Assembly: GCA_002781785.1 (NCBI GenBank)
Contig: PFGC01000050.1
Coordinates: 6,304 to 70,303 of the forward strand
From: Candidatus Kerfeldbacteria bacterium CG15_BIG_FIL_POST_REV_8_21_14_020_45_12
GTDB taxonomy: Bacteria; Patescibacteriota; Patescibacteriia; UBA9570; XYC2-FULL-38-9
Reading direction: 5' to 3'
Length of the DNA: 64,000 nucleotides
This document shows, one piece after another, positions 5,437 to 19,338 of this stretch (positions are counted from its first letter, which is position 1; each line of letters opens with the position of its first letter). The notes beneath the pieces are model-generated. The model ran no database searches and was not told where the DNA came from. It saw only the letters and a program-made list of their open reading frames with translations. A program made the translations under genes and the position numbers.

Positions 5437-5546
5437 AGTCTTGTTCCCATTAGGGAACAGCTGACACTACAAGGATCGCCCGTTTGTGTCAAGACTTATT
5501 GCTCAAGGAAATAACTTTTCAGATATTCCTAGGTTTAGTTAAAAAA

Positions 5547-5903: not shown

Positions 5904-5911
5904 GGATTAAA

Positions 5912-7894
5912 TTAGTCACTTAAACCACGTTGCGTTTCTACAATTTCGTAGACCTCAATAATATCGTCTTCCTGTATTTCTACCTCAGTCTGAATTTTCA
6001 TACCGCACTCTGTGGCGTTCTTGACCTCACGAGTTTTTTTCTTGTCTTGTTGTAACTCACTGATAATACCTTCGCCAATATTTTTTCCAGCTCGCAGAAT
6101 TTTTACTGGTGCTTCAAGGCGCATAACGCCGTCCTGAACTCGTCCGCCAGCCACGGTGTATGTTTGCTCTCTTCTGAAAACGGCCAGAATTTTGAGACTA
6201 CCAATTTTATTAAAACTTTTAGCCGCAGACAGTAGTTTTGTCAGCTCTTCCTTAGCTAAATCTATAAGTTCATAAATAATATCATGCAAATGTACAGAAA
6301 TATCTTCGTCTTTGGCAAACTTCAACGCACCATTAGTAATCCCAACGTGGAAGCCCATCACTAGAGCTCCCGAGGCGCTGGCCAGATGGATATCATTTTC
6401 GGTAATGCTGCCTAAGCCTTTCTGAATAAAATCGATTCCTACCTCTTTATGTTGAATGGCTTGTAGAGATTCAACGATAGCCTCAAGCGAGCCTAACTTA
6501 TCGGCGCGAATAATAATGGTGAGTTTTTTCTTACCATCTTCATCTTGCTTTACCCTACCCTTCAGGAAGCCAAAAGAATCATAGCTCTTAACACCATCTT
6601 TCATTTCCTTCTTGTCTTTCACGCTGCGTAGGATATCTCCTACCACTGGAGCGTTTTTTAGGCCCAAGACCTGAGCTGGCGTCGATGGTCCGACTACCTT
6701 CATTTCTAATCCCTGCCAATCTTTTAGAGATCTAATTCGTCCAGGAATATTTCCAACCCTTACTAAATCACCGCGATGAAGTGAACCGTTTTGCACCAGC
6801 ACTGTCGCGATCGGACCGGTGTGTTTATCAACGTGAGATTCAATGATTGTTCCTACCACATCTCCAGCTGGGTTGGCCTTCATGCCATTAGTTTCTACTT
6901 CAGCTAGCAGTAATACAGCATCTAGAAGCTCGTCGAGGTTAGTTCCTGCCTTAGCACTGACGCCAACGGCCACTGTCTTACCACCGTAGTCTTCTGTTGC
7001 TAGATTAACTTCGGATAGTTCTTTTTTTACACGATTTAAGTCTGCTCCTGGCTTATCAATTTTATTGATAGCAACGGCAAAAGGAATCTTAGCTTCCTGG
7101 AGAATATGAATAGATTCAATGGTCTGAGGTTTAATGCCATCATCAGCCGCTACTACCAAGATTGCGATATCAGCCACTCGAGCACCTCGTGAGCGCATCG
7201 TAGTAAAAGCCTCATGACCTGGAGTATCAATAAAAGTTATTTGTTTTCCATTACGCTCAATCTGGTAGGCGCCAATGTGCTGGGTAATGCCTCCAGCCTC
7301 CCCTTCGGTAACATTTGTTTTACGAATAGCGTCTAACAAAGTAGTTTTTCCATGATCGACGTGACCCATAATGACTACAACCGGCGGACGTTCAACCATG
7401 TCTGCTTCAGCTTCTTTGCCTAGAGCCTCTTCGATTTGAGCTGCGCGGTCATCAGTATTATCAATACCAGCATTCTCCAAAGACAGTTCCGGGGTGTAGC
7501 CCATGTCCTCAACAATAATCGCCACCGTATCGTAGTCTAGAGTTTCATTAATTGTCGCCATGATCCCGTTTTGCATAAGGATGGCGATAACGTCAGGAAC
7601 GCGTTTTTCCAGTAGTTCTGCAAGATGCTTCACAGTAATTTTATCTGGCAGTTGGATTTTCTTAATATCTCCTGCTATCGAGTCAACAATAATTTCCTCT
7701 TTAGCTTCGTCTTCAAAGATACTTCTCTTATTATCAGCCTTCCGCTTCTTTTTGATGGCCTGAATTATTTTAACAGCCACAGCGTCATCGAGCTTAATCG
7801 CCCTTTCTCCAATATCAAAACCAAGTTCGTTCACCAGGGTGAAGAACTCGTCTTTAGTCATTTTTAGCTCGCGGTAGAGCTCAGTTACATTCAT
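5912..7894 (-). CDS. infB: translation initiation factor IF-2
   Basis: 660 aa; GTPase motifs GHVDHGKTTLLD and DTPGH, then the IF-2 C-terminal domains. Confidence 0.95.
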   Translation of the reverse strand: MNVTELYRELKMTKDEFFTLVNELGFDIGERAIKLDDAVAVKIIQAIKKKRKADNKRSIFEDEAKEEIIVDSIAGDIKKIQLPDKITVKHLAELLEKRVPDVIAILMQNGIMATINETLDYDTVAIIVEDMGYTPELSLENAGIDNTDDRAAQIEEALGKEAEADMVERPPVVVIMGHVDHGKTTLLDAIRKTNVTEGEAGGITQHIGAYQIERNGKQITFIDTPGHEAFTTMRSRGARVADIAILVVAADDGIKPQTIESIHILQEAKIPFAVAINKIDKPGADLNRVKKELSEVNLATEDYGGKTVAVGVSAKAGTNLDELLDAVLLLAEVETNGMKANPAGDVVGTIIESHVDKHTGPIATVLVQNGSLHRGDLVRVGNIPGRIRSLKDWQGLEMKVVGPSTPAQVLGLKNAPVVGDILRSVKDKKEMKDGVKSYDSFGFLKGRVKQDEDGKKKLTIIIRADKLGSLEAIVESLQAIQHKEVGIDFIQKGLGSITENDIHLASASGALVMGFHVGITNGALKFAKDEDISVHLHDIIYELIDLAKEELTKLLSAAKSFNKIGSLKILAVFRREQTYTVAGGRVQDGVMRLEAPVKILRAGKNIGEGIISELQQDKKKTREVKNATECGMKIQTEVEIQEDDIIEVYEIVETQRGLSD

Positions 7895-8046
7895 AGCTAA
7901 AAAACATTACTGTTTTTAGCCAAAAATGTCAATCTTTACTACTGGCTGCCAAAAGCTTGGTAAAGCAGCCTCCTTGAGTGTCCCTGGATAGAAAACACCC
8001 CCTCTTTAATGGTGAGGGGGCGTTTCTGTCTGGCTTATTGTTTTTC

Positions 8047-10434
8047 CTAACCCTTGGTTGAGAATCTTTTCCACTGAGTAAAGTTTGAGCAGCCAGCGTC
8101 GTTACAGGCTTTCAAACGCCATTGGTATAAGTGAGCGGCTTTCAGTTTTTTTACAGTTTTCTTCACTCCAGACAGGCCGCTGAACTTTCTATATTTAGCC
8201 TTCTTTTGAAAGTCCTTCGCCTTAGCACACTGAGCTTTTTCTTCATTCTTACATTTTCTAACCTGGAGTGTGTAGCTATCGGCGCTGCTAATTGCTTTCC
8301 AGGTTAGATTAACTTGTTTATTTTTTCGTTTCTTGACCACCAATTTCTTCTTCTTTGGTTGGTTTGGTTTTTCAATACTACTGCTTCCCAGCCCCTTGTC
8401 TCCGACTAGGGAGTAGGATGAGAAGTGAGCAACGCTAGCTGTGACCACATTTTTTTCGGTATCAACCGAGGTGGATGAAGTACTGGTGTATGAGTTGGTA
8501 TCTTCATCAAAGCTGGCTGCAGCTAAGTCCTCTTCTACCAAGCCCATATCAGCCAGGCGGTCCTCATCGTAGGATATATGGAGTGTTAGGTCCTGGGAAA
8601 ATTCAGTAATTTCATTTCCAGCACTATCTCTAGCCGAGAAGTCCCAGTTTACTCCAGCGTTATAGTCAGAGTCACTACTTGGTAAGCCAGAAGCTGAACC
8701 AACCGTTAAAGTGATTGTGTCCGAGGCCAAAGCTTCTTTTGGAACAATCAACTCTGACTCACCATCTGGAAGTTCAATCGTAGTTGAACCGGCACTGTTG
8801 TCGAATGTATAAGTCGTGTCATCGTACCAGTTACCGGCCTCTGTTAGGTTAACTGTGACAGAGGTTTCTCCGTCTTTATCTCCGGTCACTACCTTGGTGT
8901 CTGAGGCTCTGTAGTAGGTGTTTTCACCAAATCCATCGCAACCGATCCAAGCAGTGGTGTTGGATAGCCAAGCGATTTCACCACTTCCATTTACTAGCTC
9001 ACCCCAATTTTGTCTGCCAGTTTTTGAGTCATACACGAAGCAGAAGGCATAGTCAGCACCGAAGGCTGTGGCTCCTAACGATTCTGCACCAAATGTTGCT
9101 GTGATGTTGATTGTGTGGTCAGCCTTCACTGCTTGCATGTTCAGGCTCTTTGATCCGTCTTTCTTAAGTAGAACCAACTCATTTTCGGGGGGTAAAACGT
9201 CACCGGTCCAAGCTCCAGTTGGATAGGCCGACACCTCATAGGTAATGCCGCTCTTTACATAAAGAGTAGCCACTCCATTTTCATTAGCCGATGCTCCTAC
9301 ATAGCCGCTCCAATCTGCCGCCGAGGCATCCACTGCGCTAACCCAGGAATATGGATCTGGCTTTCCGTCGGTCCCAAGTACAGTTACTTCAATAGTTCCG
9401 TCTGCTTCCTCAAGGGTAAACGGTACAGTTGTTTCCGCGCCAGATGTTGGTGACGCAATCGTCACCATTTCATAATTCTGAATGTATTTGGTGCCACTTC
9501 CAGTGCTGTAGAGTCCGCCGCTTTTGTATTCATATAGGTCACCACTTCCAGAGTCGACGCTGTCATCTGAGCCAACGTCACTGTCTAGGTTGCTTGTGTC
9601 ATCAACCCAAACACCAACCTGGTAAACGTAGTCACCAGACAGGACGTTTAGTTCGGCGGTACCGTTACCACCCTGACTCCAAGCGAAATCATTATAGTAA
9701 TCATTTCCTTCTGGGTCCGTTACTGAGTAGGCGTAAGCCGAGAAAGATTCAACAGATGTGATAGGATCTCCGTTTTCATCAACCAAAGCTATGTTAAGAG
9801 TGGCGTCGTGAGCCAGCAGTGTAATATCCATCTCCTTAGTTTCACTAGAAGATACGGTTGCGCTTGCTGCTACAGCGCCATAGCCATCAACCCACGCTTC
9901 ACAGGTGTAGGTGCCAGCGACTACGCTAATATCAACAGTGGACTCCCCTGGGTTAAATGACCCCCAAAAATAATTTGTCCAGTCAGCTGTGTAACAACTA
10001 GCAGAGCCCCAGCTGGTTAGTGGAATGGCTACGCTGGCCCCGTCTCCATCGACGAGGTTCAAACGCAGGGTTGCGTCTGTCCTGTTGACTGACAAAGACA
10101 CAGCGGTTACGCCACTGTCTTCAGTTGTAATTCCTTCACTACTATAAGAGCTGGAAAACCCATCCCCCCAGGTGCTGAGGTACCACTGACCAGAATCATC
10201 CTCAGACAGATCCCACGAAGCTACGCCGTTTGAGTCAGTCTGCTCATAGGCCCAACCACTGGTCGTGCTCATGTCGTCGGACCAGCCAGAAACCCAAATC
10301 CCAACAGCTGGATCATCACTCTGATCAGTGACCGTTACTTGAATAGAGCGAGTAGCCGCTTGGGCGCCGGATGCCACAAAAAACACTCCGAGGAGTGATG
10401 TAGTAAACAGCGCAAGCAATGATTTAATGTTCAT
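8047..10434 (-). CDS. large secreted S/T/D/G-rich surface protein with C-terminal Lys-rich Fn3-like module (paralog 1 of 4)
   Basis: 795 aa; signal peptide MNIKSLLALFTTSLLGVFFVASGAQA; repeated beta-sandwich-like segments; C-terminus KKKKLVVKKRK...SYTLQVRKC...YQWRLKACNDAGCS...W is shared with the ORFs at 42823, 51009 and 58115. Confidence 0.6.
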   Translation of the reverse strand: MNIKSLLALFTTSLLGVFFVASGAQAATRSIQVTVTDQSDDPAVGIWVSGWSDDMSTTSGWAYEQTDSNGVASWDLSEDDSGQWYLSTWGDGFSSSYSSEGITTEDSGVTAVSLSVNRTDATLRLNLVDGDGASVAIPLTSWGSASCYTADWTNYFWGSFNPGESTVDISVVAGTYTCEAWVDGYGAVAASATVSSSETKEMDITLLAHDATLNIALVDENGDPITSVESFSAYAYSVTDPEGNDYYNDFAWSQGGNGTAELNVLSGDYVYQVGVWVDDTSNLDSDVGSDDSVDSGSGDLYEYKSGGLYSTGSGTKYIQNYEMVTIASPTSGAETTVPFTLEEADGTIEVTVLGTDGKPDPYSWVSAVDASAADWSGYVGASANENGVATLYVKSGITYEVSAYPTGAWTGDVLPPENELVLLKKDGSKSLNMQAVKADHTINITATFGAESLGATAFGADYAFCFVYDSKTGRQNWGELVNGSGEIAWLSNTTAWIGCDGFGENTYYRASDTKVVTGDKDGETSVTVNLTEAGNWYDDTTYTFDNSAGSTTIELPDGESELIVPKEALASDTITLTVGSASGLPSSDSDYNAGVNWDFSARDSAGNEITEFSQDLTLHISYDEDRLADMGLVEEDLAAASFDEDTNSYTSTSSTSVDTEKNVVTASVAHFSSYSLVGDKGLGSSSIEKPNQPKKKKLVVKKRKNKQVNLTWKAISSADSYTLQVRKCKNEEKAQCAKAKDFQKKAKYRKFSGLSGVKKTVKKLKAAHLYQWRLKACNDAGCSNFTQWKRFSTKG

Positions 10435-10540
10435 ACGCTTCTCATTTTGTTGTTTTATTATTTTCTCGTGCCACTATATAAAAATAGCACATTTAACTTG
10501 ATCATTATAACACAATAGTGAAACTTGATCAAGTCACTTA

Positions 10541-11335
10541 TCAGCTCGTTGCCGCGTCTGATTGATTATCTAGCAGACGTCCCTTGCCAACAATAATTTT
10601 CATTTGAGCAGGCACAATCTCTGCGACGCAAGGAGTATTTACGCTAAAGACATTTTCAACCGACACCTTCAGAGTTTCGCCGGTTGAATCAATGTCTATT
10701 CTTTGAGCAGGAAAAACACTAGCCCGGCCATTAGTCTTAGTTTTACGAGATAACAAGCCGCCGTTAACTTGAGGTGTGATGTTTAGCGATAGGCGACCAT
10801 CCGACGGATCGGCTAATAACGGAGTGCTGCTAGTTAGCACATCACCGGCGTTTAGTATTGAAATTCTATTTGTTTGAGAGGTTGGCGATACCGTGTACTG
10901 TTCATCGCACTGTAGCCTGAGTTCTGCCGCTGCTGGTAATTGCAGTGCCCCAAAAAAGTAATAGTCACCTATTTTACCTAGGTCCACTTCCAGCGTGCGT
11001 CGCTTGGACAATACGTCAACGGCTGCCTCTGCCACCGGCATACCTAAGAGCTTAGCGTAGCGAGAACCAGGTGCTAGTGGGATAAAACCAAAAGTAACGT
11101 CATATGGAGCCACCACGTTGACAGCTGTTGTAAACGTGTGATCATCGCCAACGGCAATAACAGTGTGAGCACCTTTTTTTATTCCGTCCTCTATTAACTC
11201 TTTGGCATTTTTAAAAATGGAGAGTTTCTCAACTCGTCCATTTATACCCAAATCAATCAGTCGCGTTTCGAGAGTTGTGAGCTGAGACTCAAACTGCTTG
11301 TCCTGGGTCAGCTTGTCGTAGAAGTAGAAATACAT
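10541..11335 (-). CDS. DAGK/NAD-kinase-fold protein with degenerate GGDGT motif
   Basis: 264 aa; VIAVGDDHTFTTAVN occupies the position of the GGDGT catalytic loop of the DAGK_cat/NAD kinase family; it may be non-catalytic. Confidence 0.4.
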   Translation of the reverse strand: MYFYFYDKLTQDKQFESQLTTLETRLIDLGINGRVEKLSIFKNAKELIEDGIKKGAHTVIAVGDDHTFTTAVNVVAPYDVTFGFIPLAPGSRYAKLLGMPVAEAAVDVLSKRRTLEVDLGKIGDYYFFGALQLPAAAELRLQCDEQYTVSPTSQTNRISILNAGDVLTSSTPLLADPSDGRLSLNITPQVNGGLLSRKTKTNGRASVFPAQRIDIDSTGETLKVSVENVFSVNTPCVAEIVPAQMKIIVGKGRLLDNQSDAATS

Positions 11336-11357
11336 GCGCGCAGCATGGTGTCACCGA

Positions 11358-11786
11358 TTAGTCTACCTTTTCCTCTGCTACAACTTGAGAGACCGTAGCG
11401 GCCGGCTTTGTGCCAGAGACACAGCGCCCCTGTACCATTGCTCCAGTTTCGATCGAGATAATATCCGTTTCAATATCACCAATAATTCTTGCTGTGCTAG
11501 TCAGTTCAATGATGTGAGTTGCAACAATGTTACCTTTCACTTCGCCGGCAATGTGCATATTCTCGGCACTGACATCAGCTTCAATAGAAGCGTCCTTTCC
11601 AACAGTTAAATTTTTTGTAGTTCTGATTGTTCCGGTCACGTGACCTTCAATCAAAATATTATCTTCACTTTCAAACACACCCTCCACTTTTACAGTAGGA
11701 CCAATCACGGTTTGGGCTGTAGTCTCTCCAGCGCTTACCATGCCATGTTCCGTGCCGTCCTCCTCTTTAGAAAACATCGCTACCAT
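11358..11786 (-). CDS. bactofilin (polymer-forming cytoskeletal protein)
   Basis: 142 aa; typical bactofilin beta-helical repeat pattern (IEGHVTGTIRTTKNLTVGKDASIEADVSAENMHIAGEVKGNI). Confidence 0.8.
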   Translation of the reverse strand: MVAMFSKEEDGTEHGMVSAGETTAQTVIGPTVKVEGVFESEDNILIEGHVTGTIRTTKNLTVGKDASIEADVSAENMHIAGEVKGNIVATHIIELTSTARIIGDIETDIISIETGAMVQGRCVSGTKPAATVSQVVAEEKVD

Positions 11787-12341: not shown

Positions 12342-12357
12342 TGTTCCACGTAGAACA
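12342..12357. promoter_or_regulatory. 16-bp palindromic operator-like site TGTTCCACGTAGAACA overlapping the Nudix start codon
   Basis: One of five near-identical palindromes (consensus TGTTCCACGTGGAACA) clustered around the TrmB-like regulator gene. Confidence 0.5.
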
Positions 12358-12776
12358 TGTCTAACGACTACCACCTTCCACGTGTCGCCGCTGGAGCGTT
12401 GATACTTAATAACGTCGGAGAGGTTCTTCTTTTATTGAGATCAAAAAATTGTCGTAACGATCAAGGGTTGTGGAGCTTACCCGGCGGTAAGCTTGAGTTT
12501 GGAGAAAGGCTGACCGATGCGGTTCGTAGGGAGGTTAAAGAAGAGGTCGATTTGGAACTGATCAAAATTAAACAAATAGGATACGTTGATCACATCCTAG
12601 ATGACGGCAGCCAACACTGGGTACCACAGATTTTTCTTTGCACTCAGTTCATTGGAACTGCTAGAAATGTGGAACCAGACAAGTGTGATGAATTAGGCTG
12701 GTTTTCTCTTGATAGTATCCCTGAAGAGAGGTCACAGGTGTTAACGGACGCAATCTCACTTTACACAGATCTATAA
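12357..12776 (+). CDS. Nudix hydrolase
   Basis: 139 aa; canonical Nudix box GGKLEFGERLTDAVRREVKEEVDLEL. Confidence 0.85.
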   Translation: MSNDYHLPRVAAGALILNNVGEVLLLLRSKNCRNDQGLWSLPGGKLEFGERLTDAVRREVKEEVDLELIKIKQIGYVDHILDDGSQHWVPQIFLCTQFIGTARNVEPDKCDELGWFSLDSIPEERSQVLTDAISLYTDL

Positions 12777-12781
12777 ACAAA

Positions 12782-12797
12782 TGTTCCACGTGGAACA
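12782..12797. promoter_or_regulatory. perfect 16-bp palindrome TGTTCCACGTGGAACA
   Basis: Exact inverted repeat immediately 3' of the Nudix stop, followed by a terminator hairpin. Confidence 0.5.
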
Positions 12798-12800
12798 AAA

Positions 12801-12830
12801 TAACACCCCGAGGGGTGTTATTTGTTTTTG
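12801..12830. terminator. bidirectional rho-independent terminator (aacaccccgaggggtgtt + T-run)
   Basis: GC-rich hairpin flanked by A-run and T-run. It lies between the convergent Nudix gene and the Cys-rich peptide ORF. Confidence 0.6.
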
Positions 12831-13036
12831 CAGCAATCTTCGCCGCCAGCGCACTCGTGTCCTTCTGTCTGACATTTTTCGCAAGTGCCTTGCTGGCAAT
12901 CTCCACTTTTACAGCCCCCAGCCATATTTGCTTGGACCTCTTTGGTGATATCTTTGCCATCTGGGCTAGTCGCCTCTAAAATTTCATCAGGAGTTACCCC
13001 CTTATTATCGCAGGCACAATTTCCGCCACATCCCAT
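12818..13036 (-). CDS. Cys-rich small peptide (72 aa, 12 Cys), SCIFF-like or metallothionein-like
   Basis: This is the in-frame C-terminal part of track ORF 12818..13240, starting at the internal ATG just downstream of tRNA-Ala. Sequence: MGCGGNCACDNKGVTPDEILEATSPDGKDITKEVQANMAGGCKSGDCQQGTCEKCQTEGHECAGGEDCCKNK. The Gly-Gly is followed by a Cys-dense tail. Confidence 0.4.
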   Translation of the reverse strand: MGCGGNCACDNKGVTPDEILEATSPDGKDITKEVQANMAGGCKSGDCQQGTCEKCQTEGHECAGGEDCCKNK

Positions 13037-13058
13037 AAGTATTTTGTTAAGAGTTCTG

Positions 13059-13131
13059 TGGACCATAGCGGACTTGAACCGCTGACCTCTTCCATGCCAT
13101 GGAAGCGCTCTACCAGCTGAGCTAATGGCCC
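13059..13131 (-). tRNA. tRNA-Ala (anticodon GGC)
   Basis: Cloverleaf folded by hand: acceptor GGGCCAT/ATGGTCC with the G3:U70 Ala identity pair, D arm GCTC-AGCTGGTA-GAGC, anticodon loop ATGGCAT, T arm AGCGG-TTCAAGT-CCGCT. Confidence 0.85.
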
Positions 13132-13175
13132 GTATCGAGCTACTGTATACCACGATTATCTGGCTGTGTCCACAT

Positions 13176-13191
13176 TGTTCTACGTGGAACA
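13176..13191. promoter_or_regulatory. palindromic site TGTTCTACGTGGAACA upstream of tRNA-Ala
   Basis: About 45 bp upstream of the tRNA-Ala 5' end on the minus strand; exact reverse complement of the site at 12342. Confidence 0.5.
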
Positions 13192-13212
13192 ATTGCAATA
13201 ACCAAGAAAGGA

Positions 13213-13953
13213 TTATGAGGCAGTAACCGCCGTCCGCCAAGCCAACTCAAATAGGCCTCTAAAAGTCCTAACCAAGTCCTTTGACTCAATCGCTATGGCG
13301 TATGGAGTGCTATCAAAGGAGGCGACCACAAGGGTGTTTCCAAACATGACGTTGTCACCAAAGAATTGGAACTGATCATCTATAGTACGAATAGTGTGAA
13401 AATTATTACTATATATCTTAGCATACTCTGTATTGAATTTAGTACTTGTCACCACTTCACGCACAGTATATCCACCATTACTGATCTCAGAGTAAAATTT
13501 ATTGAACAGGTCGTTTGACCTAATAACAAAAGGTTCTCTGTCAGATGAAAGCAAGTCAATCTTCGAATGTTCCACGAGGAACATTCTGTATAGCTCTGCC
13601 ACCTCTCTAGCGCCATTATAGTAATTTACGGTTGGCCGTGCCCCCTCCTTTAAATAGATATCTGACAGCAGAGGTTTAATTGATTGAAATAGGGCCAACT
13701 GCTTCTCCAGTGTGTTTCCAAGGACTGATGGTTTTTGAGCGAGAAAGATAGTGGTTGATCCGGTTTTGAGCATTGTTACTAGTCCCATGTTTTGTAACTC
13801 CTCAAGAATAACGTAGGCCGTAGGTCTTTTTATATTAGCTTGTTTTGAGATATCTAAAGCAGAAGCACTCCCTAATTCAAGCGTTGCTATGTAGACCGTG
13901 GCTTGCTTGTCGCTTAGGCCTAACTCAGTAAGTTGTTTGGTGAGTTCCTGCAT
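13213..13953 (-). CDS. TrmB-family winged-helix transcriptional regulator
   Basis: 246 aa; N-terminal TrmB-type HTH (LGLSDKQATVYIATLELGSASALDISKQANIKRPTAYVILEELQNMGLV); the C-terminal ~170 aa are uncharacterised. Confidence 0.7.
   Translation of the reverse strand: MQELTKQLTELGLSDKQATVYIATLELGSASALDISKQANIKRPTAYVILEELQNMGLVTMLKTGSTTIFLAQKPSVLGNTLEKQLALFQSIKPLLSDIYLKEGARPTVNYYNGAREVAELYRMFLVEHSKIDLLSSDREPFVIRSNDLFNKFYSEISNGGYTVREVVTSTKFNTEYAKIYSNNFHTIRTIDDQFQFFGDNVMFGNTLVVASFDSTPYAIAIESKDLVRTFRGLFELAWRTAVTAS
13568..13583. promoter_or_regulatory. palindromic site TGTTCCACGAGGAACA inside the regulator CDS
   Basis: Same motif with one central mismatch; it lies inside the regulator's own coding region. 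Confidence 0.35.
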
Positions 13954-13955
13954 AG

Positions 13956-13971
13956 TGTTCTACGTGGAACA
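13956..13971. promoter_or_regulatory. palindromic operator TGTTCTACGTGGAACA at the regulator's start codon
   Basis: Lies 3 bp from the ATG of the TrmB-like gene; suggests autoregulation. Confidence 0.55.
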
Positions 13972-14627
13972 TATGTTAAATAATGGATAGTGTCAAGAAA
14001 ACGGACACTAGAAAACTCATAAAAAATAGGAGAAAAGAGTAAAAAAACTATAAAGCGTCAAAGATTCAGACAGTCTAGATAATTCCCACAGAATTTTCAC
14101 TTGACTTACTATCTGGAAGGAGTAGCCTTTAAGTACAACTTAACTATGTCTACTAAAGTTTTCCAATTTAATTCAGTCCAGAGCGATATTCTCATCGACT
14201 CTGTTTCTTGGCGTCTGGAGTAGACCCTGCTTGATCTTTCAATGATTACTCCGGTCGCTCCGGAGTTTTTTATTTACTGGCTCCTTCACATTAGCTGCTA
14301 TTTAAGCGGCTGCTGCGAGGGAGTCAGCTGTACGTGCGAGTTCGCGCGAGCCGCTGGCCCCTCAGCTTATCAGTAAGCTTGATGCCATGAATGTTCGGCG
14401 CCTGCTCGCAGTCATGCTGCTGACTGCTTCACTGTGGGACGCCCTGCATGGGCATCACAGTCCCCACGTTGAGCCGTGCACCTCTCGTGTTGTCCGATAT
14501 GTATCTTCTAGATACGAATCGAACACCGAGGTGTTACGACTCCCCACCACGACCCGTTGAGCGCAAGCTCCGGGTCTCTTTTTTTGTAAAAAAAGACTGG
14601 CCATGAAGCGGTGTGCTCTAGGCCAGG

Positions 14628-15323
14628 TCAGGATTCGTCCTCGGCGACAACCGGGCGGCGCAGGCGCACCGTCGGGGCTTCCGTAGGATCGAAGGTAGCG
14701 GTTTCCGGTGGAGCCAGCTCCCGAGCGGTTGCCAGGTCGATGGACTGAAGTCCTCCGCTGGGAAGGCGACGAACCAGTTCGACCCTGGCGCGTGTCTGCA
14801 CGGGGGACTCCTCGCTCTCAGGAGCGATCAGCGGGAACTCTCGCATGACGTCGACGAGCGGGCTGGCCACGCCAACGAAGCGGTTGGATCGACCAGACTG
14901 GGTTTGGACACCGATCTGCTCGTTGATCCGCTCGACCAGGGACTCTGGGGTTTCGACCCCGATGCTGGCAGCGAACAGGTTCGCCTCCAGTACCACCCAG
15001 TCCTCCTCGAAGCCGTCGATCAGCGGCTGACTGCGTGCTGCCGGCCGAGGGTTGAAGGCCGAGGTCAGGCCGTCGCTCTGGCGGAAGGCCAGAGGAGAGC
15101 TGTCGTTTCGCGGCACGACCCTCTCCAGCCGGTAGAAGACGAGCGTCGGATCATCACCGAACACCCTCAGGACGGTGTCCAGGAAGTCCAAGCAGGTATC
15201 GTCTTCATCGCCGGTCGGGGCTGCCCCGAACACCAGCGCCATCATCACCGTGGGCGGTCGCCCACTTCGGGGAGCTTTCATTCTCACCTCCTTAGGTTGT
15301 GTGGTAGCCGAACTGGCTTCCAT
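14628..15323 (-). CDS. hypothetical protein on a high-GC islet
   Basis: 231 aa, acidic, no recognisable motif. The sequence is visibly far more GC-rich than the flanking genes. I preferred it over the antisense track ORF 14904..15398, which has an R/H-rich composition. Confidence 0.4.
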   Translation of the reverse strand: MEASSATTQPKEVRMKAPRSGRPPTVMMALVFGAAPTGDEDDTCLDFLDTVLRVFGDDPTLVFYRLERVVPRNDSSPLAFRQSDGLTSAFNPRPAARSQPLIDGFEEDWVVLEANLFAASIGVETPESLVERINEQIGVQTQSGRSNRFVGVASPLVDVMREFPLIAPESEESPVQTRARVELVRRLPSGGLQSIDLATARELAPPETATFDPTEAPTVRLRRPVVAEDES

Positions 15324-15402: not shown

Positions 15403-16875
15403 ATGAAAACACTTCAATGGAAAAAGTTGTCAGTTCGAAAGTTCTCAGCTTCTCGCTATGAGATAATTGCTCAAATTTTCTGCGATGATTTTTATCTTTC
15501 AGAATTTGGATCTAACGTACTTAATTTATTAGTCGTTCCAGAGCGTGGTAATCACGCCACCTACTTAGACGCTAATGAGTGGGAAGGATTCGCCAAGAGT
15601 CTTTATCAAACGGTAGCTAAAAGCCGTGAGACATTTGATAGGTATAAGTTGATGATTCAGCATGACCAAAAGCATTTTATCGGCGTGTGTGGAGACGTGG
15701 GCTCGCAAGATCTAACCAACGCTTCAGAGGAACAGTTGCTGGAGTGGTTTGAAGCTTATGTTGCAGCTTATCAGCAGTATTTCAGAACTTCCATCTTGAT
15801 TCCTTTTATAATGGAGCCGCTAATTAGTGATGATGCTAGGCGCCAGTTAGAAAATATTTTATCTGAACGCAAATTAGACGCTAAGTTCCAACATTACTTT
15901 GACGCCATTTTTCTTCCCGAAGAAAAAAATGCCATCACACAAGAACGTGAGGATCTTTTGCGCATAGTAGAAGACGCCGATCTGCATAGTCTCTCAGAGG
16001 TCGATGTCAACTTTCGTTTAGAAGAACATACAGCCAAATATCGTTGGATCCCTTGTTACGATATTAATGATAAGCCTTGGGGAGTTGAAACTTTTAGAAA
16101 GCTATATGATGATCTTCGTGCCGATCACTGGCAAGAAGAGCTAGAAGACCTAGTTCATTTTGGAAATCGCGCCACTGGTTTTCAGACAGCTCTAGACGAA
16201 CTTGTTACAACTGTTGATCAGAGGGTGTTGTTCACTATTGTTCATGATATTGTTTTTCTAAAAGATGAACGTGACGACTTTCGAAGACGCGGTAGTTATT
16301 TAATTCAACCATTTTTTTCAGAACTAGCTAAGCGAATGGGAGGCTTGTCCTTAGATGAAGTCTCGAATTTGCTTCAACGTGAGGTTCAAGTTTTTCTCGG
16401 TACCGGCACTTTGCCCCTGCGTAGTAAAATAAAAGAACGCACGGATGGCTTTGCTATGTTGAAGACGCCCAGAGAAGCTGAGGTTCGTATTTACAGCGGC
16501 CCTGAGGTATCCGCAGTGGCTCATGAGCAATTAGGTGACCAGCCGGAGCGCCAGGGTAATTTCCTGGAGGGCATCGTGGCTTCAGAAGGGGTGACCAGTG
16601 GTCCTGCTCGTCTCGTTATCACTAAAGACGACCTTGCTAAGATCCAACCGGGCGACATTATGGTCGCGGTTACCACACATCCAGACTATGTTCCAGCTAT
16701 GCGAAAATGTGCTGGTATTGTAACTGATGAGGGAGGGCTGACTGCGCACGCGGCCATTATTTCGCGCGAGCTTCAGATTCCATGCTTGGTTGGCGTTCAA
16801 ACTGCTACCGCAATATTTTCCGATGGTGATCAAATTACGCTTGATGCTTCAGCTGGATTTGTTAGAAAGTCATAA
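15403..16875 (+). CDS. PEP-utilising-enzyme mobile (phosphohistidine swivel) domain protein
   Basis: 490 aa; the C-terminal GGLTAHAAIISRELQIPCLVG matches the swivel His motif of PPDK/PEP synthase/rifampin phosphotransferase; the N-terminal ~350 aa are of unknown function. Confidence 0.6.
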   Translation: MKTLQWKKLSVRKFSASRYEIIAQIFCDDFYLSEFGSNVLNLLVVPERGNHATYLDANEWEGFAKSLYQTVAKSRETFDRYKLMIQHDQKHFIGVCGDVGSQDLTNASEEQLLEWFEAYVAAYQQYFRTSILIPFIMEPLISDDARRQLENILSERKLDAKFQHYFDAIFLPEEKNAITQEREDLLRIVEDADLHSLSEVDVNFRLEEHTAKYRWIPCYDINDKPWGVETFRKLYDDLRADHWQEELEDLVHFGNRATGFQTALDELVTTVDQRVLFTIVHDIVFLKDERDDFRRRGSYLIQPFFSELAKRMGGLSLDEVSNLLQREVQVFLGTGTLPLRSKIKERTDGFAMLKTPREAEVRIYSGPEVSAVAHEQLGDQPERQGNFLEGIVASEGVTSGPARLVITKDDLAKIQPGDIMVAVTTHPDYVPAMRKCAGIVTDEGGLTAHAAIISRELQIPCLVGVQTATAIFSDGDQITLDASAGFVRKS

Positions 16876-16960
16876 GAAAAACTGGGCAAAGATTTACCGA
16901 TTTGCCATTAGGGGGCTTGCATTATATTGAAAAGCCTGTATTCTATCTCTAGATCCAGCT

Positions 16961-18250
16961 ATGGACCAAGCATCGATATACATTCTTATAATCTTAATCC
17001 TTTTATCGGGATTTTTCTCAGGGGCAGAAATAGCCCTTTTTTCTCTATCTTCTGCAAAAGTACGCGCTTTAGTCGCACGTAAGTCTAGGAATGCTAAGCT
17101 TTTACAGCGAGTTAAAGCTAGGCCACAGCGCTTGCTCATCACTATTTTAATCGGAAACAACCTGGTTAATATCAGTGCTTCATCGCTCGCTACCGTTGTG
17201 GCGATCGACAAATTTGGCAATGCCGGAGTCGGTGTGGCTACAGGAGTGATGACCTTTTTGATTTTATTCTTAGGAGAGATTACTCCAAAGAGCATTGCGC
17301 AAAAATACGCCGAACAACTCTCGCTTAGAGTAGCGCCAATTATGCGGTTCTTGATGCTGGCCCTATCGCCGCTGGTTTGGGTCATGTACATCTTAACCAG
17401 AGGTGTCCAAGTTATTACCAAAACTGATAAGCTAACGTCTTCAGTGTCTGAGGAAGAGGTCAGGGCCATGGTTGACATTGGTCACGAAGAGGGCAGTTTG
17501 GAGCATGGCGAAAAAGAGATGATTCAAAATGTTTTCTTGCTCAATGATATTGCGGCTGAGGACGTCATGACTCCAGATGAGTACATGGTGTACTTCAATA
17601 CCGACACGCTCTTACGCGAAGCCATTGCCGTAATTGAAGAGTCTGGTTTTTCTCGTTTCCCAGTTCGTAGCGCCACTGGCGACGAGGTTGTAGGTGTTTT
17701 ATATATCAAAGATGTTTTTGCACTACTGGCAAAGCAAGCACACGCAGGTGCCACAGATGAAGTTTATGATACGCCGATTTCACAACTCATAAAATCACCG
17801 TTCTTTGTTCCTGAAACCATGCACGTTGATGATTTAATGAAAGAATTTCAAAAAGTTCGCAAGCACATCGCTATCGTTGTAGACGAACACGGCAAAACCC
17901 GAGGCCTTGTTACCTTAGAAGATCTTCTGGAGGAAATCGTTGGCGAGATTGTCGACGAAACCGACATTGACGACAAGATGATACGCCGCATCAACAAGCA
18001 CACCATCATGATCGATCCACGCATCGCCATTGGTAAAGTTAATACATTCTTTAACTCAGAGCTCAAGGGTCCCACCCACAAAACCATTGGCTGGTTGACC
18101 ATTAAGCACTTTGGTCGGATTCCTCAGAAAGGAGACGCTGTCACAATAAATGGATATAACTTTACAGTTGAGGAGGCAGACGAGCGCAGGGTGAAGCGCC
18201 TGTTGATGATTAAAACTGCTGAGGCCAGGGCCCTTGAACACGCCAAATAG
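16961..18250 (+). CDS. CNNM/CorC-family protein (DUF21 TM domain + CBS pair + CorC_HlyC)
   Basis: 429 aa; four N-terminal TM helices, tandem CBS region and a C-terminal CorC/HlyC transporter-associated domain. Confidence 0.85.
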   Translation: MDQASIYILIILILLSGFFSGAEIALFSLSSAKVRALVARKSRNAKLLQRVKARPQRLLITILIGNNLVNISASSLATVVAIDKFGNAGVGVATGVMTFLILFLGEITPKSIAQKYAEQLSLRVAPIMRFLMLALSPLVWVMYILTRGVQVITKTDKLTSSVSEEEVRAMVDIGHEEGSLEHGEKEMIQNVFLLNDIAAEDVMTPDEYMVYFNTDTLLREAIAVIEESGFSRFPVRSATGDEVVGVLYIKDVFALLAKQAHAGATDEVYDTPISQLIKSPFFVPETMHVDDLMKEFQKVRKHIAIVVDEHGKTRGLVTLEDLLEEIVGEIVDETDIDDKMIRRINKHTIMIDPRIAIGKVNTFFNSELKGPTHKTIGWLTIKHFGRIPQKGDAVTINGYNFTVEEADERRVKRLLMIKTAEARALEHAK

Positions 18251-18346
18251 GTTGACTTTAGCTCTGACATAACGTAAATAGAAGGCGACTCAAAAGTGAG
18301 TCGCTCTTTGTTAAACAAATCAACTCGCACGCCGACGTGCAATTTT

Positions 18347-19231
18347 GGAGGAGTGATGAAAATCTCTCCAGACGTGCTGTTCGGCGTGGTGGCAATGCTC
18401 GGCTTCGGCTGTGCAAACCTCATGTCGCAGCCAGTGGCGAAACAGGTAGGAGCTGCTCGCGCCTTGCTCTGGCGCACGATCTTCACGATCACGCTGTCGG
18501 GCATAGCGGCTCTGTCGCTAGGTGACTGGCACCGCCTGACGGCATCTGCTGTGCTGCAGTCCCTGTTCCTGGGGGCGGTCTCGTACATTCCGATCTACTG
18601 CTTCTACAAGGCTATTGAGCACGGCAAGCTGGGAGTAGTTGTGCCCATTGCCAACGCCTACGCCCTAATCACCGTGGCGGCAGGAGTGCTCATTCTCGGC
18701 GAGGTGCTGACGCCCGGGATTGTTCTTGGAGTGCTGTGCACAACACTCGGTCTTGTCATCATGACATGCAACCCAAAGGACTGGCGCAAATCGGACGTCT
18801 GGCATTGGCGCAGCGGAGCTCCCTACGCCCTGATCACGATGGTCACCTGGGGCCTCTTCTTCCCAGCCATCCAGATCCCAGCCAAGCAGCTCGGGGCTGT
18901 TACCAACACCTTCTTCGTGGAGGCGGCCGTAGGAGTAGTCGCTATCGGTCACGGTGTTTACCTGCGACAGTCGCTGGCACCACCAACCGGACGCTACTTG
19001 GTATTAGTTTTCGGGGCAGCCTTGGCTGGAGTAGTCGCCAGCCTCGGTATGTACACTGGACTGGCTGTTGGTAGTGTGAGCATCGTTGGCCCCGTGGCTG
19101 CGGCTAGTCCTGTCGTTGCTGGGATCGGTGCCTGGCTCTGCTTCGGTGAGAAGTTGCGCCCTGTGCAGTACCTGGCAGCGGTCACCACCGTGGCGGGGGT
19201 GGCCGGACTGGCTTTGTTGGCAGGAGGATAG
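18347..19231 (+). CDS. EamA/DMT-family transporter on a high-GC islet
   Basis: About 294 aa from the internal ATG preceded by GGAGG. It has ~10 predicted TM helices and a duplicated EamA-like layout. GC is visibly elevated compared with flanking corC and trxA. A hairpin terminator lies at ~18286-18305 upstream and a hairpin plus T-run lies after the stop. Confidence 0.6.
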   Translation, partial: GGVMKISPDVLFGVVAMLGFGCANLMSQPVAKQVGAARALLWRTIFTITLSGIAALSLGDWHRLTASAVLQSLFLGAVSYIPIYCFYKAIEHGKLGVVVPIANAYALITVAAGVLILGEVLTPGIVLGVLCTTLGLVIMTCNPKDWRKSDVWHWRSGAPYALITMVTWGLFFPAIQIPAKQLGAVTNTFFVEAAVGVVAIGHGVYLRQSLAPPTGRYLVLVFGAALAGVVASLGMYTGLAVGSVSIVGPVAAASPVVAGIGAWLCFGEKLRPVQYLAAVTTVAGVAGLALLAGG

Positions 19232-19338
19232 GCGTCGCCCCGGGCAACGCCACTTTTTTTACTTTCTGGGTCGGTAGTTGCCAGAGCCGTGATCAGCTCC
19301 TATAATACCGCTACCCTAATAACTAGTTATAATATTAT

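What the first reader, a model, noticed from the sequence alone, without database searches (positions are those of the whole stretch)
12818..13036. Unannotated 72-aa Cys-rich peptide immediately downstream of tRNA-Ala, with Gly-Gly followed by a SCIFF-like Cys-dense tail
The 140-aa track ORF (12818..13240) runs straight through tRNA-Ala, so its 5' part is spurious. Its in-frame 3' segment begins at an ATG right after the tRNA. It encodes MGCGGNCACDNKGVTPDEILEATSPDGKDITKEVQANMAGG|CKSGDCQQGTCEKCQTEGHECAGGEDCCKNK, with 12 Cys in 72 aa. The acidic N-terminal part ends in a Gly-Gly. The tail resembles the SCIFF/ranthipeptide core pattern (GGCGECQTSCQ...), suggesting a RiPP precursor or a small metal-binding, metallothionein-like protein. 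It ends at the same bidirectional terminator as the convergent Nudix gene and lies inside the palindrome-marked regulon.
Basis: partly seen in the sequence, partly recalled or inferred. Interest (0 to 1): 0.6.

Follow-up and report, generated by a model that had tools for sequence, protein, structure and literature searches.

The report
Conserved cysteine-rich mini-protein beside tRNA-Ala
The 72-codon ORF after tRNA-Ala is a real gene, conserved but confined to one small clade, that encodes a small acidic cysteine-rich protein; it looks like a new metallothionein-type metal binder rather than a RiPP precursor, and the "regulon" palindromes around it match the chromosome-partition site parS.

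Summary
The ORF (13036..12818, minus strand) exists as described, but it has 10 Cys, not 12. NCBI and JGI already call it a hypothetical protein. It is a genuine coding gene. Eight diverged lineages of Candidatus Kerfeldbacteria-like CPR bacteria keep it, with saturated synonymous change (pS 0.70-0.99), constrained non-synonymous change (pN 0.24-0.40), and third-codon-position change about twice that of positions 1 and 2. All copies start MGCG(G/E)NCxC. They share 7 invariant and 2 near-invariant Cys and contain no aromatic residue in 525 aa. They match no Pfam, NCBIfam or PDB family, SCIFF and known metallothioneins included. The Gly-Gly is not conserved. No radical-SAM, SPASM or C39-ABC gene lies in the window or in six neighbourhoods, so the RiPP reading is not supported. 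The best reading is a new metallothionein-like metal-thiolate protein, but this function is inferred only. In four lineages it lies directly downstream of tRNA-Ala(GGC); in the window the gap is 21 nt with no detected terminator or promoter. The palindrome TGTTCCACGTGGAACA is the canonical parS sequence. Five sites cluster at a GC-skew minimum, and every family member sits between two parS sites. This points to a centromere, not a regulon.

The parts
12818..13036 (-). Coding sequence of a 72-aa (7.36 kDa, pI 4.5) Cys-rich mini-protein, stop codon included. The true start is the ATG at 13036.
   Evidence: Translation. All 8 homologues start at the same MGCG. pN 0.24-0.40 against pS 0.70-0.99. 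Codon-position differences 0.34/0.32/0.61. MW and pI.
13037..13057 (-). 21-nt A/U-rich spacer between the tRNA 3' end and the ATG. It holds no Shine-Dalgarno sequence, no scan-detected promoter and no terminator.
   Evidence: Sequence. No promoter or terminator site reported here. Only 5 of 44 genes in the window have an SD-like motif under a loose criterion.
13058..13131 (-). tRNA-Ala(GGC), directly upstream on the same strand and probably co-transcribed with the mini-protein gene.
   Evidence: ARAGORN. Rfam tRNA 64.4 bits. The same tRNA sits directly upstream in L011 and L016, and a tRNA-like derivative does so in L009/L010.
13144..13172 (-). Promoter-like TGGACA-N17-TATACA, ending 12 nt before the tRNA 5' end. 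I read this by eye; the scan did not flag it because the last base of the -10 is not T.
   Evidence: Sequence. The scan reports another candidate, TTGGCG-N17-CATAAT, at 13240..13212. Both are inference only.
12798..12823 (.). 12-bp G+C-cored hairpin (AAATAACACCCC / GGGGTGTTATTT) with T-runs on both strands. It is a bidirectional terminator shared with the convergent NUDIX gene, and the mini-protein's TAA lies in one arm.
   Evidence: Terminator scan. Inverted repeat I18, 100% complementary.
12782..12797 (.). parS-type palindrome TGTTCCACGTGGAACA (perfect), just downstream of the terminator.
   Evidence: Identical to the P. putida / P. aeruginosa parS quoted in PMC7022226. A parS follows the gene in all 8 lineages.
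13176..13191 (.). parS-type palindrome (1 mismatch), upstream of the tRNA-Ala / mini-protein unit.
12342..12357 (.). parS-type palindrome (1 mismatch) abutting the NUDIX start codon. It is part of the same 5-site cluster.
13568..13583 (.). parS-type palindrome (1 mismatch) inside the TrmB-family gene.
   Evidence: The intragenic sites in L009 and L011 lie at a different position and in a different reading frame, so this is a DNA-level element.
13956..13971 (.). parS-type palindrome (1 mismatch), 3 nt upstream of the TrmB-family gene's start.

Best explanation
The ORF is a real, translated gene for a small (55-72 aa), acidic, cytosolic cysteine-rich protein. The family is restricted to Candidatus Kerfeldbacteria and close CPR relatives.

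Its nine conserved thiols are an N-terminal C-x3-C-x-C triad in the invariant MGCG(G/E)NCxC, a central C-x4-C-x4-C-x2-C block, and a C-terminal (H)G-x-x-CC. I propose that these close around a metal-thiolate cluster, for example M(II)3Cys9 or a Zn4Cys9His-type cluster. The protein would then act like a metallothionein, as a Zn/Cu/Cd buffer, store or chaperone.

In this genome it is transcribed from a promoter upstream of tRNA-Ala(GGC) as a tRNA-mRNA precursor. tRNA processing (RNase P and a 3' endonuclease) would leave an mRNA with a 21-nt leader lacking an SD, which is normal for this largely SD-less genome. Transcription stops at the hairpin shared with the NUDIX gene.

Shown: the gene is conserved and under purifying selection; its composition and Cys pattern; its operon-like anatomy; the absence of RiPP machinery nearby.
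Inferred: translation, metal binding, stoichiometry and co-transcription.
For: Real gene:
- An exhaustive phmmer search of 1.84 billion representatives found three small homologues. A profile search found three more. A Kerfeldbacteria MAG carries an uncalled copy.
- pS is 0.70-0.99 against pN 0.24-0.40. Third-position differences are 0.61 against 0.34 and 0.32.
- Sense-strand consensus promoters (TTGACA-N17-TAATAT in L012, L014, L015) and hairpin-plus-T-run terminators flank the gene in the other lineages.

Metallothionein-like features:
- Mass 7.36 kDa and pI 4.5; Cys content 11-16%; zero F/W/Y in 525 family residues (P about 1e-19 at the background rate).
- Seven invariant and two near-invariant Cys, in C-x-C, C-x2-C and CC motifs.
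- The Cys-free middle segment is dispensable. It is missing in the L012 member and replaced by extra Cys motifs in the tandem paralogue of L008 (MSCEGNCAC...NCECSGNCVCENGVCKC...HGDACCKA), which keeps only the two termini.
- AF2 gives no confident apo fold (pLDDT 49.5). That is compatible with metal-dependent folding but does not show it.
- The N-terminus has the same M-G-C-x3-C-x-C spacing as the wheat Ec-1 metallothionein gamma-domain; I validated that sequence against PDB 2MFP/2L61.

Co-transcription:
- The tRNA-to-ATG gap is 21 nt in the window and 20 nt in L009. In L016 the tRNA, a parS and the ATG follow one another with no room for a promoter.
- No terminator is reported between the TrmB-family gene, the tRNA and the ORF.
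Against: - There is no experimental or omics evidence of translation or metal binding.
- No homology to any known metallothionein family was found: no Pfam or NCBIfam hit, no PDB hit, hhalign probability 6% to wheat Ec-1 and 0.7% to SmtA.
- The Cys content (about 14%) is below that of classical metallothioneins.
- G2, G4 and N6 are invariant, and seven of eight members keep an EI(L/V)xAxxPxGKDIT segment. That is more non-Cys conservation than a plain metal sponge needs, and it hints at a specific partner or fold.
- No metal-sensing regulator (ArsR/SmtB, MerR, CsoR) is adjacent. The neighbouring TrmB-family protein has no Cys. An ArsR-type gene appears only 2.6 kb away, and only in L014.
- tRNA-linked expression or a strong consensus promoter suggests constitutive rather than metal-induced expression.
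Confidence: 0.5

Rival explanations
1. It is a small zinc-knuckle or structural-zinc adaptor or regulatory protein. The Cys residues hold one or two structural Zn ions, and the conserved non-Cys residues (MGCGxN, EILEAxxPDGKDIT) contact a specific partner. The partner might be connected with the ParB-parS partition complex in which the gene is embedded, or with the neighbouring TrmB-family regulator.
For: Invariant G2, G4 and N6, and a conserved Cys-free segment in 7 of 8 members. In all 8 lineages the gene lies between two consecutive parS sites. A TrmB-family gene is adjacent in the window and in L009, L011 and L012. A bactofilin gene lies 1-2 kb away in the window and in L008, L009, L010 and L012.
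Against: The middle segment is absent in L012 and replaced in the L008 paralogue. Only one CxxC knuckle is present, and it is missing in L009. The variable Cys-containing tails and the tandem duplication look more like metallothionein evolution. The family exists only in a clade where the whole region is syntenic, so the parS and TrmB adjacency cannot be separated from inherited gene order. There is no similarity to any zinc-finger family beyond noise (zf_CCCH_4 E=0.12 in one member, AZUL E=3.1).
Confidence: 0.22
2. It is a redox-active thiol protein or a small Fe-S protein. It would act as a sacrificial or thioredoxin-recycled thiol buffer, or as a cluster carrier, in an organism that may lack low-molecular-weight thiols.
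For: High thiol density. Thioredoxin and thioredoxin reductase genes lie 3-7 kb away in the syntenic region of the window and of L008, L009 and L014. The convergent or adjacent NUDIX gene could be a sanitising enzyme.
Against: There is no ferredoxin-type CxxCxxC...CP motif and no match to Fe-S, glutaredoxin or thioredoxin families. The Trx/TrxR genes are not adjacent and are simply part of the conserved gene order. Nothing distinguishes this reading from metal binding, which most such thiol arrays perform.
Confidence: 0.12
3. It is a RiPP precursor: SCIFF- or ranthipeptide-like, or a double-glycine leader peptide cleaved by a C39 peptidase. The Cys-dense tail would be the modified core.
For: Superficial resemblance of GGCKSGDCQQGTCEKC to the SCIFF core. 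A stand-alone Peptidase_C39_2 protein exists at 59333-59890 (E 3.9e-15). Only 64 kb of the genome could be inspected.
Against: No hit to TIGR03973 or to any NCBIfam or Pfam model for any of the 8 members. The GG is unique to this sequence. The most conserved part is the extreme N-terminus with its own Cys triad, not a leader followed by a variable core. No radical-SAM/SPASM, YcaO, LanB/C/M or ABC exporter gene is in the window or in the neighbourhoods of six lineages. The C39-like protein is 46 kb away and is not fused to a transporter.
Confidence: 0.05
4. It is not a gene. The open frame would be a chance ORF in a tRNA trailer or terminator region.
For: Short ORF with no SD. Several antisense frames are also open over the same span.
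Against: It is conserved as an ORF with the same start in 8 lineages, including L008, L012, L014 and L015 where no tRNA is found directly upstream. dN is far below dS, and third-position variation is in excess. Its own consensus promoters and terminators lie in the sense direction. The antisense frames are broken in some lineages, for example 23 aa in L015.
Confidence: 0.02

Closest known systems
Plant-type metallothioneins (types 1-3 and wheat Ec-1; Pfam Metallothio_2 / Metallothio_PEC)
   Same: Small acidic proteins without aromatic residues. Cys clusters sit at both ends, separated by a Cys-free linker. The wheat Ec-1 N-terminus MGCDDKCGC has the same M-G-C-x3-C-x-C spacing as MGCGGNCAC, and Ec-1 also contains GCGEHCGC (sequence validated against PDB 2MFP, 2L61 and 2KAK).
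   Different: No detectable homology: no Pfam hit at E<=10, and hhalign gives 6% probability over 10 columns. This family has fewer Cys (8-10 against 12-17), a partly conserved linker, and is found in CPR bacteria.
Bacterial metallothioneins SmtA/BmtA (PDB 1JJD), Pseudomonas MTs and M. tuberculosis MymT
   Same: Bacterial Cys(+His) proteins of about 50-80 aa. SmtA uses 9 Cys and 2 His for a Zn4 cluster (general knowledge), and this family has 9 conserved Cys with a frequent C-terminal His. Only SmtA (Zn) and MymT (Cu) have a studied function (PMC7387436).
   Different: No sequence similarity: hhalign probability 0.7% to SmtA and no PDB profile hit. SmtA contains aromatic residues and a zinc-finger-like fold, and its gene sits next to its sensor SmtB. 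No metal sensor is adjacent here.
SCIFF / ranthipeptide precursors (NCBIfam TIGR03973)
   Same: A short peptide with a Cys-dense segment that follows a Gly-Gly in this one sequence.
   Different: No model hit. Cys residues are also present at the extreme N-terminus. The GG is not conserved. No radical-SAM/SPASM maturase is nearby. The family occurs in CPR rather than Clostridia.
tRNA-mRNA co-transcripts such as the E. coli thrU-tyrU-glyT-thrT-tufB operon (general knowledge)
   Same: A protein-coding gene lies directly downstream of tRNA gene(s) with no intervening promoter or terminator, so the mRNA 5' end would be made by tRNA processing.
   Different: Here there is a single tRNA-Ala(GGC) and a 72-codon gene. 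In one lineage the tRNA has lost its anticodon loop. No transcript data are available.
Chromosomal parS / ParB centromere clusters
   Same: The flanking palindrome TGTTCCACGTGGAACA is identical to the P. putida and P. aeruginosa parS and fits the general TGTTNCACGTGAAACA consensus (PMC7022226). Five sites cluster within 1.6 kb at the cumulative GC-skew minimum and at the gene-strand switch.
   Different: No ParB gene was found in the window, and binding is untested. The cluster is unusually dense and regularly spaced (about 390 bp). Sites sit in every intergenic gap of the NUDIX / mini-protein / TrmB region.

Membership tests
SCIFF / ranthipeptide precursor (TIGR03973) | Sequence matches the SCIFF profile HMM | tested here: not met
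   NCBIfam scans of the protein and of all 8 family members at E<=10 gave no SCIFF hit. Caveat: HMMER filters drop most matches above E of about 0.1.
SCIFF / ranthipeptide precursor (TIGR03973) | Adjacent radical-SAM/SPASM maturase gene | tested here: not met
   No Radical_SAM or SPASM family appears among the called genes within about 8-10 kb in the window lineage or in L008, L009, L011 and L014. No CxxxCxxC motif occurs in any open stretch of 120 aa or more in the 64-kb window. The window ORFs that were Pfam-scanned gave no such family. The rest of the genome was not available.
Double-glycine leader peptide processed by a C39 peptidase-ABC exporter | Conserved GG/GA/GS cleavage motif at the end of the leader | tested here: not met
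   The residues aligned with G40-G41 are R-S, G-A, E-G, H-G, K-E, K-T and K-K in the homologues.
Double-glycine leader peptide processed by a C39 peptidase-ABC exporter | C39 peptidase domain fused to or next to an ABC exporter near the precursor | tested here: not met
   The only C39-like protein (59333-59890, 185 aa, stand-alone) is 46 kb away. The ABC genes at 56083-57836 are of the ABC-3 metal-importer type. No C39 or ABC exporter lies in the neighbourhoods of the other lineages.
Metallothionein (operational definition: small, Cys-rich, no aromatics, metal-thiolate clusters) | Low molecular weight (<10 kDa) | tested here: met
   7.36 kDa; the family ranges from 55 to 72 aa.
Metallothionein (operational definition: small, Cys-rich, no aromatics, metal-thiolate clusters) | High Cys content in C-x-C, C-x-x-C and C-C motifs | tested here: inconclusive
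   Cys content is 11-16% against a proteome background of 0.81%. C-x-C, C-x2-C and CC motifs are present, with 9 conserved Cys columns. The content is below the 20-33% of classical metallothioneins.
Metallothionein (operational definition: small, Cys-rich, no aromatics, metal-thiolate clusters) | Absence or scarcity of aromatic residues | tested here: met
   0 F/W/Y in 525 residues of 8 members (background 8.0%; P about 1e-19) and none in the L008 paralogue.
Metallothionein (operational definition: small, Cys-rich, no aromatics, metal-thiolate clusters) | Binds several metal ions in thiolate clusters | not testable with these tools
   This needs a metal analysis of the purified protein. The AF2 apo model is unconfident (pLDDT 49.5).
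Known metallothionein sequence families (Pfam Metallothio, Metallothio_2, Metallothio_PEC, Metallothio_Pro/BmtA; solved MT structures) | Detectable sequence or profile homology | tested here: not met
   No Pfam hit at E<=10 for any member. No PDB hit for the family profile at E<=10. hhalign probability is 6% to wheat Ec-1 and 0.7% to SmtA.
Chromosomal parS (ParB-binding centromere): applies to the flanking palindromes, not to the protein | 16-bp palindrome matching TGTTNCACGTGAAACA / TGTTCCACGTGGAACA | tested here: met
   One perfect site and four sites with a single mismatch; 0.01 expected by chance. Consensus taken from PMC7022226.
Chromosomal parS (ParB-binding centromere): applies to the flanking palindromes, not to the protein | Clustered near the replication origin | tested here: inconclusive
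   All 5 sites lie within 12342-13971, at the cumulative GC-skew minimum and at the switch from minus-strand to plus-strand genes. However, no DnaA-box cluster or dnaA gene was found there.
Chromosomal parS (ParB-binding centromere): applies to the flanking palindromes, not to the protein | Cognate ParB encoded and binding the sites | not tested
   No ParB family was seen among the window ORFs scanned. The rest of the genome was not available.

The most novel reading that the evidence does not exclude
The tRNA-Ala(-like) element and the Cys-rich mini-protein may form a dedicated module that sits between parS sites of the centromere in this CPR clade.

In one lineage (L009/L010) the upstream tRNA has lost its anticodon: it has a 7-bp stem capped by a UUCG tetraloop. 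It nevertheless keeps the cloverleaf, the G3:U70 alanine identity pair, and compensatory stem changes. This suggests it is retained for a role other than decoding.

That role could be either of two things. It could be an RNase P/Z processing and stability handle that defines the mini-protein mRNA. More exotically, it could be an Ala-charged donor for tRNA-dependent modification of the peptide. In either case the protein would be the first metallothionein-type family specific to CPR bacteria.
Probability: 0.1. Interest if true: 0.7.

Novelty: new variant of a known kind. Interest (0 to 1): 0.35.

Why it matters
If the metal-binding inference holds, this would be a previously undescribed metallothionein-like family in CPR (Patescibacteria) bacteria. 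It has no homology to known bacterial, plant or animal metallothioneins. A full-text search for papers mentioning both "Candidate Phyla Radiation" and "metallothionein" returned nothing. The family would add to the very few bacterial metallothioneins with any studied function (SmtA and MymT; PMC7387436).

The context is also useful to annotators in four ways:
- It corrects NCBI's 82-aa gene model, which starts inside a tRNA.
- It shows that the "regulon palindrome" matches parS and, with the GC skew and gene-strand switch, probably marks the origin-proximal centromere of a Kerfeldbacteria genome.
- It provides a probable example of tRNA-mRNA co-transcription in a largely SD-less genome.
- It turns up an anticodon-less tRNA-like element in a sister lineage.

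None of this overturns current understanding. The protein's function remains an inference from composition.

Tried and rejected
- The first word-indexed protein search found only the query itself. The exhaustive phmmer search was needed to find homologues.
- A genome-contig scan with the TrmB-family neighbour found nothing. The second scan, with the peptide alignment, found one Kerfeldbacteria MAG.
- Both metagenome-contig scans were unproductive. The alignment query gave 113 pattern matches, none confirmed. The degenerate DNA pattern for MGCG(G/E)NCxC gave one locus, L013, which is a chance internal match in an unrelated 210-aa protein.
- AlphaFold2 with the 7-sequence alignment gave pLDDT 49.5, so I did not run a fold search, since it would have been meaningless.
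- The PDB profile search gave no hit at E<=10.
- The search with the L008 paralogue found only itself.
- The long phmmer hits (P0004, P0007, P0009; 890-2661 aa) match only the Cys-free 'EATxPDGxDIT' segment, a cadherin/Calx-like turn motif, and say nothing about function.
- I first read the palindrome as the operator of the adjacent TrmB-family regulator. I rejected this once a literature string search showed it is the canonical parS, and because the copies inside the TrmB gene lie at different positions and in different frames between lineages.
- The DnaA-box search (TTATCCACA, up to 1 mismatch) showed no cluster near 12-15 kb.
- The seven JGI contigs carrying the identical protein are 100% identical over 600 nt, so they give no population-level information.
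Full report
**1. The observation**

ARAGORN and Rfam place tRNA-Ala(GGC) at 13131..13058 on the same strand. The 140-aa TTG-started ORF 13240..12818 therefore runs through a tRNA gene, and its 5' part is spurious. The ATG is 21 nt downstream of the tRNA 3' end. The stop codon lies in one arm of a perfect 12-bp hairpin (12798-12823), which the scan also flags as the terminator of the convergent NUDIX gene.

Three details are wrong:
- The protein has 10 Cys, not 12. It is Gly that occurs 12 times.
- The gene is not unannotated. JGI calls the 72-aa product on 7 contigs. NCBI has an 82-aa 'hypothetical protein COW24_04825' from a Candidatus Kerfeldbacteria MAG. That model starts 30 nt further upstream, inside the tRNA.
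- The Gly-Gly is not a family feature (see section 3).

Against this window's own proteins (Cys 0.81%, F+W+Y 8.0%), 10 Cys in 72 aa has P of about 4e-10, and zero aromatics has P of about 0.0025.

**2. Is it a gene?**

Yes. The word-indexed search found only the query. An exhaustive phmmer search of 1.84 billion representatives found three small homologues. A profile search added three more. A scan of GTDB species genomes found an uncalled 55-codon copy in another Kerfeldbacteria MAG, JACPGJ010000005.1.

All eight lineages start MGCG(G/E)NC(A/G/V)C. Codon-aligned comparisons give pS 0.70-0.99 (saturated) against pN 0.24-0.40. Differences at codon positions 1, 2 and 3 are 0.34, 0.32 and 0.61. 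This is the signature of a translated frame.

Orientation is fixed by sense-strand promoters (TTGACA-N17-TAATAT in L012, L014 and L015) and by hairpin-plus-T-run terminators after the stop codon. Antisense frames are often open too, but they are broken in some lineages.

It fails. In L008, L012 and L014, and in the short contig L015, no tRNA lies directly upstream, yet the ORF is kept.

**3. What kind of protein?**

The family is tiny: 7 clusters among 5.8 billion proteins, plus L012 and one paralogue. It is so far confined to Kerfeldbacteria-like CPR bacteria.

It has no Pfam, NCBIfam or PDB relative. This holds for the query and for every member scanned on its own.

Seven Cys columns are invariant (C3, C7, C9, C42, C47, C52, C69). 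Two are nearly so (C55 in 7 of 8, C68 in 6 of 8). A His often precedes the C-terminal CC, as HG(D/E)xCC. There is no aromatic residue in 525 family residues. The protein is acidic (pI 4.5).

The Cys-free middle segment, EI(L/V)xAxxPxGKDIT, is conserved in seven members but missing in L012. In L008 a tandem paralogue keeps only the termini (MSCEGNCAC... and ...HGDACCKA) and fills the middle with C-x-C motifs.

Small size, high thiol content, no aromatics, terminal Cys clusters around a replaceable linker, a variable Cys-bearing tail and tandem duplication are together the hallmarks of metallothioneins.

The N-terminal spacing M-G-C-x3-C-x-C equals that of the wheat Ec-1 gamma-domain, and Ec-1 also contains GCGEHCGC. 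Profile comparison nevertheless gives only 6% probability, and 0.7% to SmtA, which I validated against 1JJD. The resemblance is therefore one of kind, not of descent.

AF2 gives no confident apo fold (pLDDT 49.5). This is uninformative, but it is compatible with metal-dependent folding.

**4. The RiPP reading**

- No SCIFF model hit was found.
- The Gly-Gly at positions 40-41 aligns with RS, GA, EG, HG, KE, KT and KK in the homologues.
- The most conserved part is the extreme N-terminus, which carries its own Cys triad. A leader-plus-core precursor would not be expected to look like this.
- The precomputed Pfam lists for the neighbourhoods of five lineages show bactofilin, DAGK-like, NUDIX, TrmB, CNNM/CorC, thioredoxin, thioredoxin reductase, glutamate dehydrogenase and similar families. 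They show no radical-SAM/SPASM, YcaO, lanthipeptide enzyme or C39-ABC exporter.
- In the window, no open stretch of 120 aa or more has a CxxxCxxC motif. Pfam scans of 45 window ORFs found no maturase-like family.
- A stand-alone 185-aa Peptidase_C39_2 protein exists at 59333-59890. It is 46 kb away and is not fused to a transporter.

I rate the RiPP reading at about 5%. The caveat is that only 64 kb of the genome was available.

**5. Context: the 'regulon' palindrome matches parS**

TGTTCCACGTGGAACA occurs five times in the window, once perfectly and four times with one mismatch. All five lie within 12342-13971, where 0.01 would be expected by chance, and none occurs elsewhere even at 3 mismatches.

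A literature string search returned ParABS papers. The review PMC7022226 lists TGTTCCACGTGGAACA as the P. putida parS, TGTTCCACGtGGAACa for P. aeruginosa, and TGTTNCACGTGAAACA as the general consensus.

The cluster sits at the cumulative GC-skew minimum, where genes switch from the minus strand (75-11786) to the plus strand (15403-34756). This is the expected place for an origin-proximal centromere.

The copy inside the TrmB-family gene lies at a different position and in a different reading frame in the window (FLVEH) than in L009 and L011 (VPRGT). It is therefore a DNA-level site and not a conserved protein motif.

In all eight lineages the mini-protein gene lies between two consecutive parS sites. 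One is 38-155 nt upstream of the ATG. The other is roughly 5-60 nt after the stop codon, just past the terminator where there is one. I found no ParB gene in the window and no DnaA-box cluster. The parS assignment therefore rests on sequence identity, clustering and skew.

**6. Expression anatomy**

No terminator or scan-detected promoter lies between the TrmB-family gene's stop (13213), the tRNA and the ORF. A promoter-like TGGACA-N17-TATACA (13172-13144, read by eye) ends 12 nt before the tRNA. The scan lists another candidate, TTGGCG-N17-CATAAT, at 13240-13212.

The tRNA-to-ATG gap is 21 nt here and 20 nt in L009. In L016 the order is tRNA-Ala, parS, 22 nt, ATG. In L011 a duplicated parS and a TTGACA-N17-TATTAT promoter intervene. 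Co-transcription followed by tRNA-type processing is the simplest reading for the window. It has a precedent in the E. coli tRNA-tufB operon (general knowledge).

The missing Shine-Dalgarno sequence is not an argument against translation. Only 5 of 44 genes in the window have even a loose SD motif. Many have a TATAAT-like box 6-8 nt before the ATG, although the 16S rRNA keeps CCUCC.

**7. Mechanism I commit to (confidence about 0.5)**

I propose a constitutively or strongly expressed cytosolic metal-thiolate protein, that is, a metallothionein-like buffer, store or chaperone. Its nine conserved thiols, with or without the C-terminal His, would wrap a small metal cluster.

Three things count against it. 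There is more non-Cys conservation than a metal sponge needs. No metal sensor is adjacent. The Cys content, at 14%, is modest.

The rivals are:
- a structural-zinc adaptor or regulator, possibly linked to the partition complex (0.22);
- a redox or Fe-S thiol protein (0.12);
- a RiPP precursor (0.05);
- not a gene (0.02).

**8. Novelty and score**

This is a real, uncharacterised family restricted to one clade. It fits a known kind, metallothionein-like proteins, without belonging to any known family. Its setting is unusual: it is tRNA-linked and embedded in a parS cluster. The function is inferred from composition alone.

A specialist would find it mildly interesting rather than surprising. 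I score interest at 0.35.

The most novel reading still open concerns the tRNA(-like) element and the peptide as a functional module. It is prompted by the anticodon-less, G3:U70-retaining tRNA-like element in L009/L010.

Noticed in passing
window 12342-12357, 12782-12797, 13176-13191, 13568-13583, 13956-13971: Five parS-type palindromes (TGTTCCACGTGGAACA) are spaced 440, 394, 392 and 388 bp apart, at the GC-skew minimum and the gene-strand switch. They probably mark the origin-proximal centromere of this Kerfeldbacteria genome. One site occupies every intergenic gap of the NUDIX / mini-protein / TrmB region and one lies inside the TrmB-family gene.
   Followed up: partly
L009 7907-7980 (identical in L010 2553-2626): The orthologue of tRNA-Ala(GGC), 20 nt upstream of the mini-protein ATG, has a 7-bp anticodon stem closed by a UUCG tetraloop, so it has no anticodon. 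It keeps the cloverleaf, G3:U70, the D and T arms and compensatory stem changes (Rfam tRNA 45.3 bits). It is either a tRNA-like element with a non-decoding role or a decaying pseudogene. L009 and L010 may come from the same sample.
   Followed up: partly
L008 7636-7872: A tandem 78-aa paralogue with 12 Cys (MSCEGNCACK...NCECSGNCVCENGVCKC...acidic tail...HGDACCKA) lies just upstream of the L008 family member. It shares only the N- and C-terminal motifs and has no relatives in the protein database.
   Followed up: yes
window 58069-57905 (-): A second small Cys/His-rich ORF of 54 aa (MDSHYVCTGGCGGLSNTPGTCQAETCPKHDQPLTECHCEDTQHTEVMTQTEAGE) lies tail-to-tail with a Zn/Mn-type ABC importer (ABC_tran 56083-57030, ABC-3 57033-57836). 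It has no Pfam hit.
   Followed up: partly
window 59333-59890 (+): A stand-alone 185-aa Peptidase_C39_2 / C39-like protein (E 3.9e-15), not fused to an ABC transporter.
   Followed up: partly
window, upstream regions of 44 genes: The genome is largely free of Shine-Dalgarno sequences (5 of 44 genes with a loose motif). Many genes have a TATAAT-like box 6-8 nt before the ATG, which suggests widespread leaderless mRNAs. The 16S rRNA 3' end still carries CCUCC.
   Followed up: partly
window 41516-42052 (+) and 42049-42738 (-): A PHO4 phosphate transporter is split. Profile positions 1-146 are on the plus strand and positions 162-349 are on the minus strand of the adjoining segment. This is either an internal inversion or an assembly artefact.
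   Followed up: no
window 14500-15000, 18500-19000, 47886-49685: There are GC-rich islands (0.60-0.62) in a genome of about 45% GC. The largest holds a 599-aa ORF with an adenylate/guanylate cyclase domain and a long antisense ORF. The island at 14.5-15 kb overlaps a 231-aa ORF (14628-15323) with no Pfam hit, next to the parS cluster. They could reflect horizontal acquisition or a chimeric assembly.
   Followed up: no
window 12782-13191 compared with L009 7888-8238 and L011 2059-2557: The tRNA-Ala plus mini-protein segment is inverted in the window relative to the NUDIX and TrmB genes when compared with L009, L011 and L016. The inverted segment is bounded by two parS palindromes. In L011 the parS and the first bases of the tRNA are duplicated on both sides of the tRNA.
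   Followed up: partly
window 11358-11786 (-); also L008, L009, L010, L012: A bactofilin gene lies within 1-2 kb of the parS cluster in the window and in four other loci. From general knowledge, bactofilins anchor ParB-parS complexes in Myxococcus. The link here is untested.
   Followed up: no
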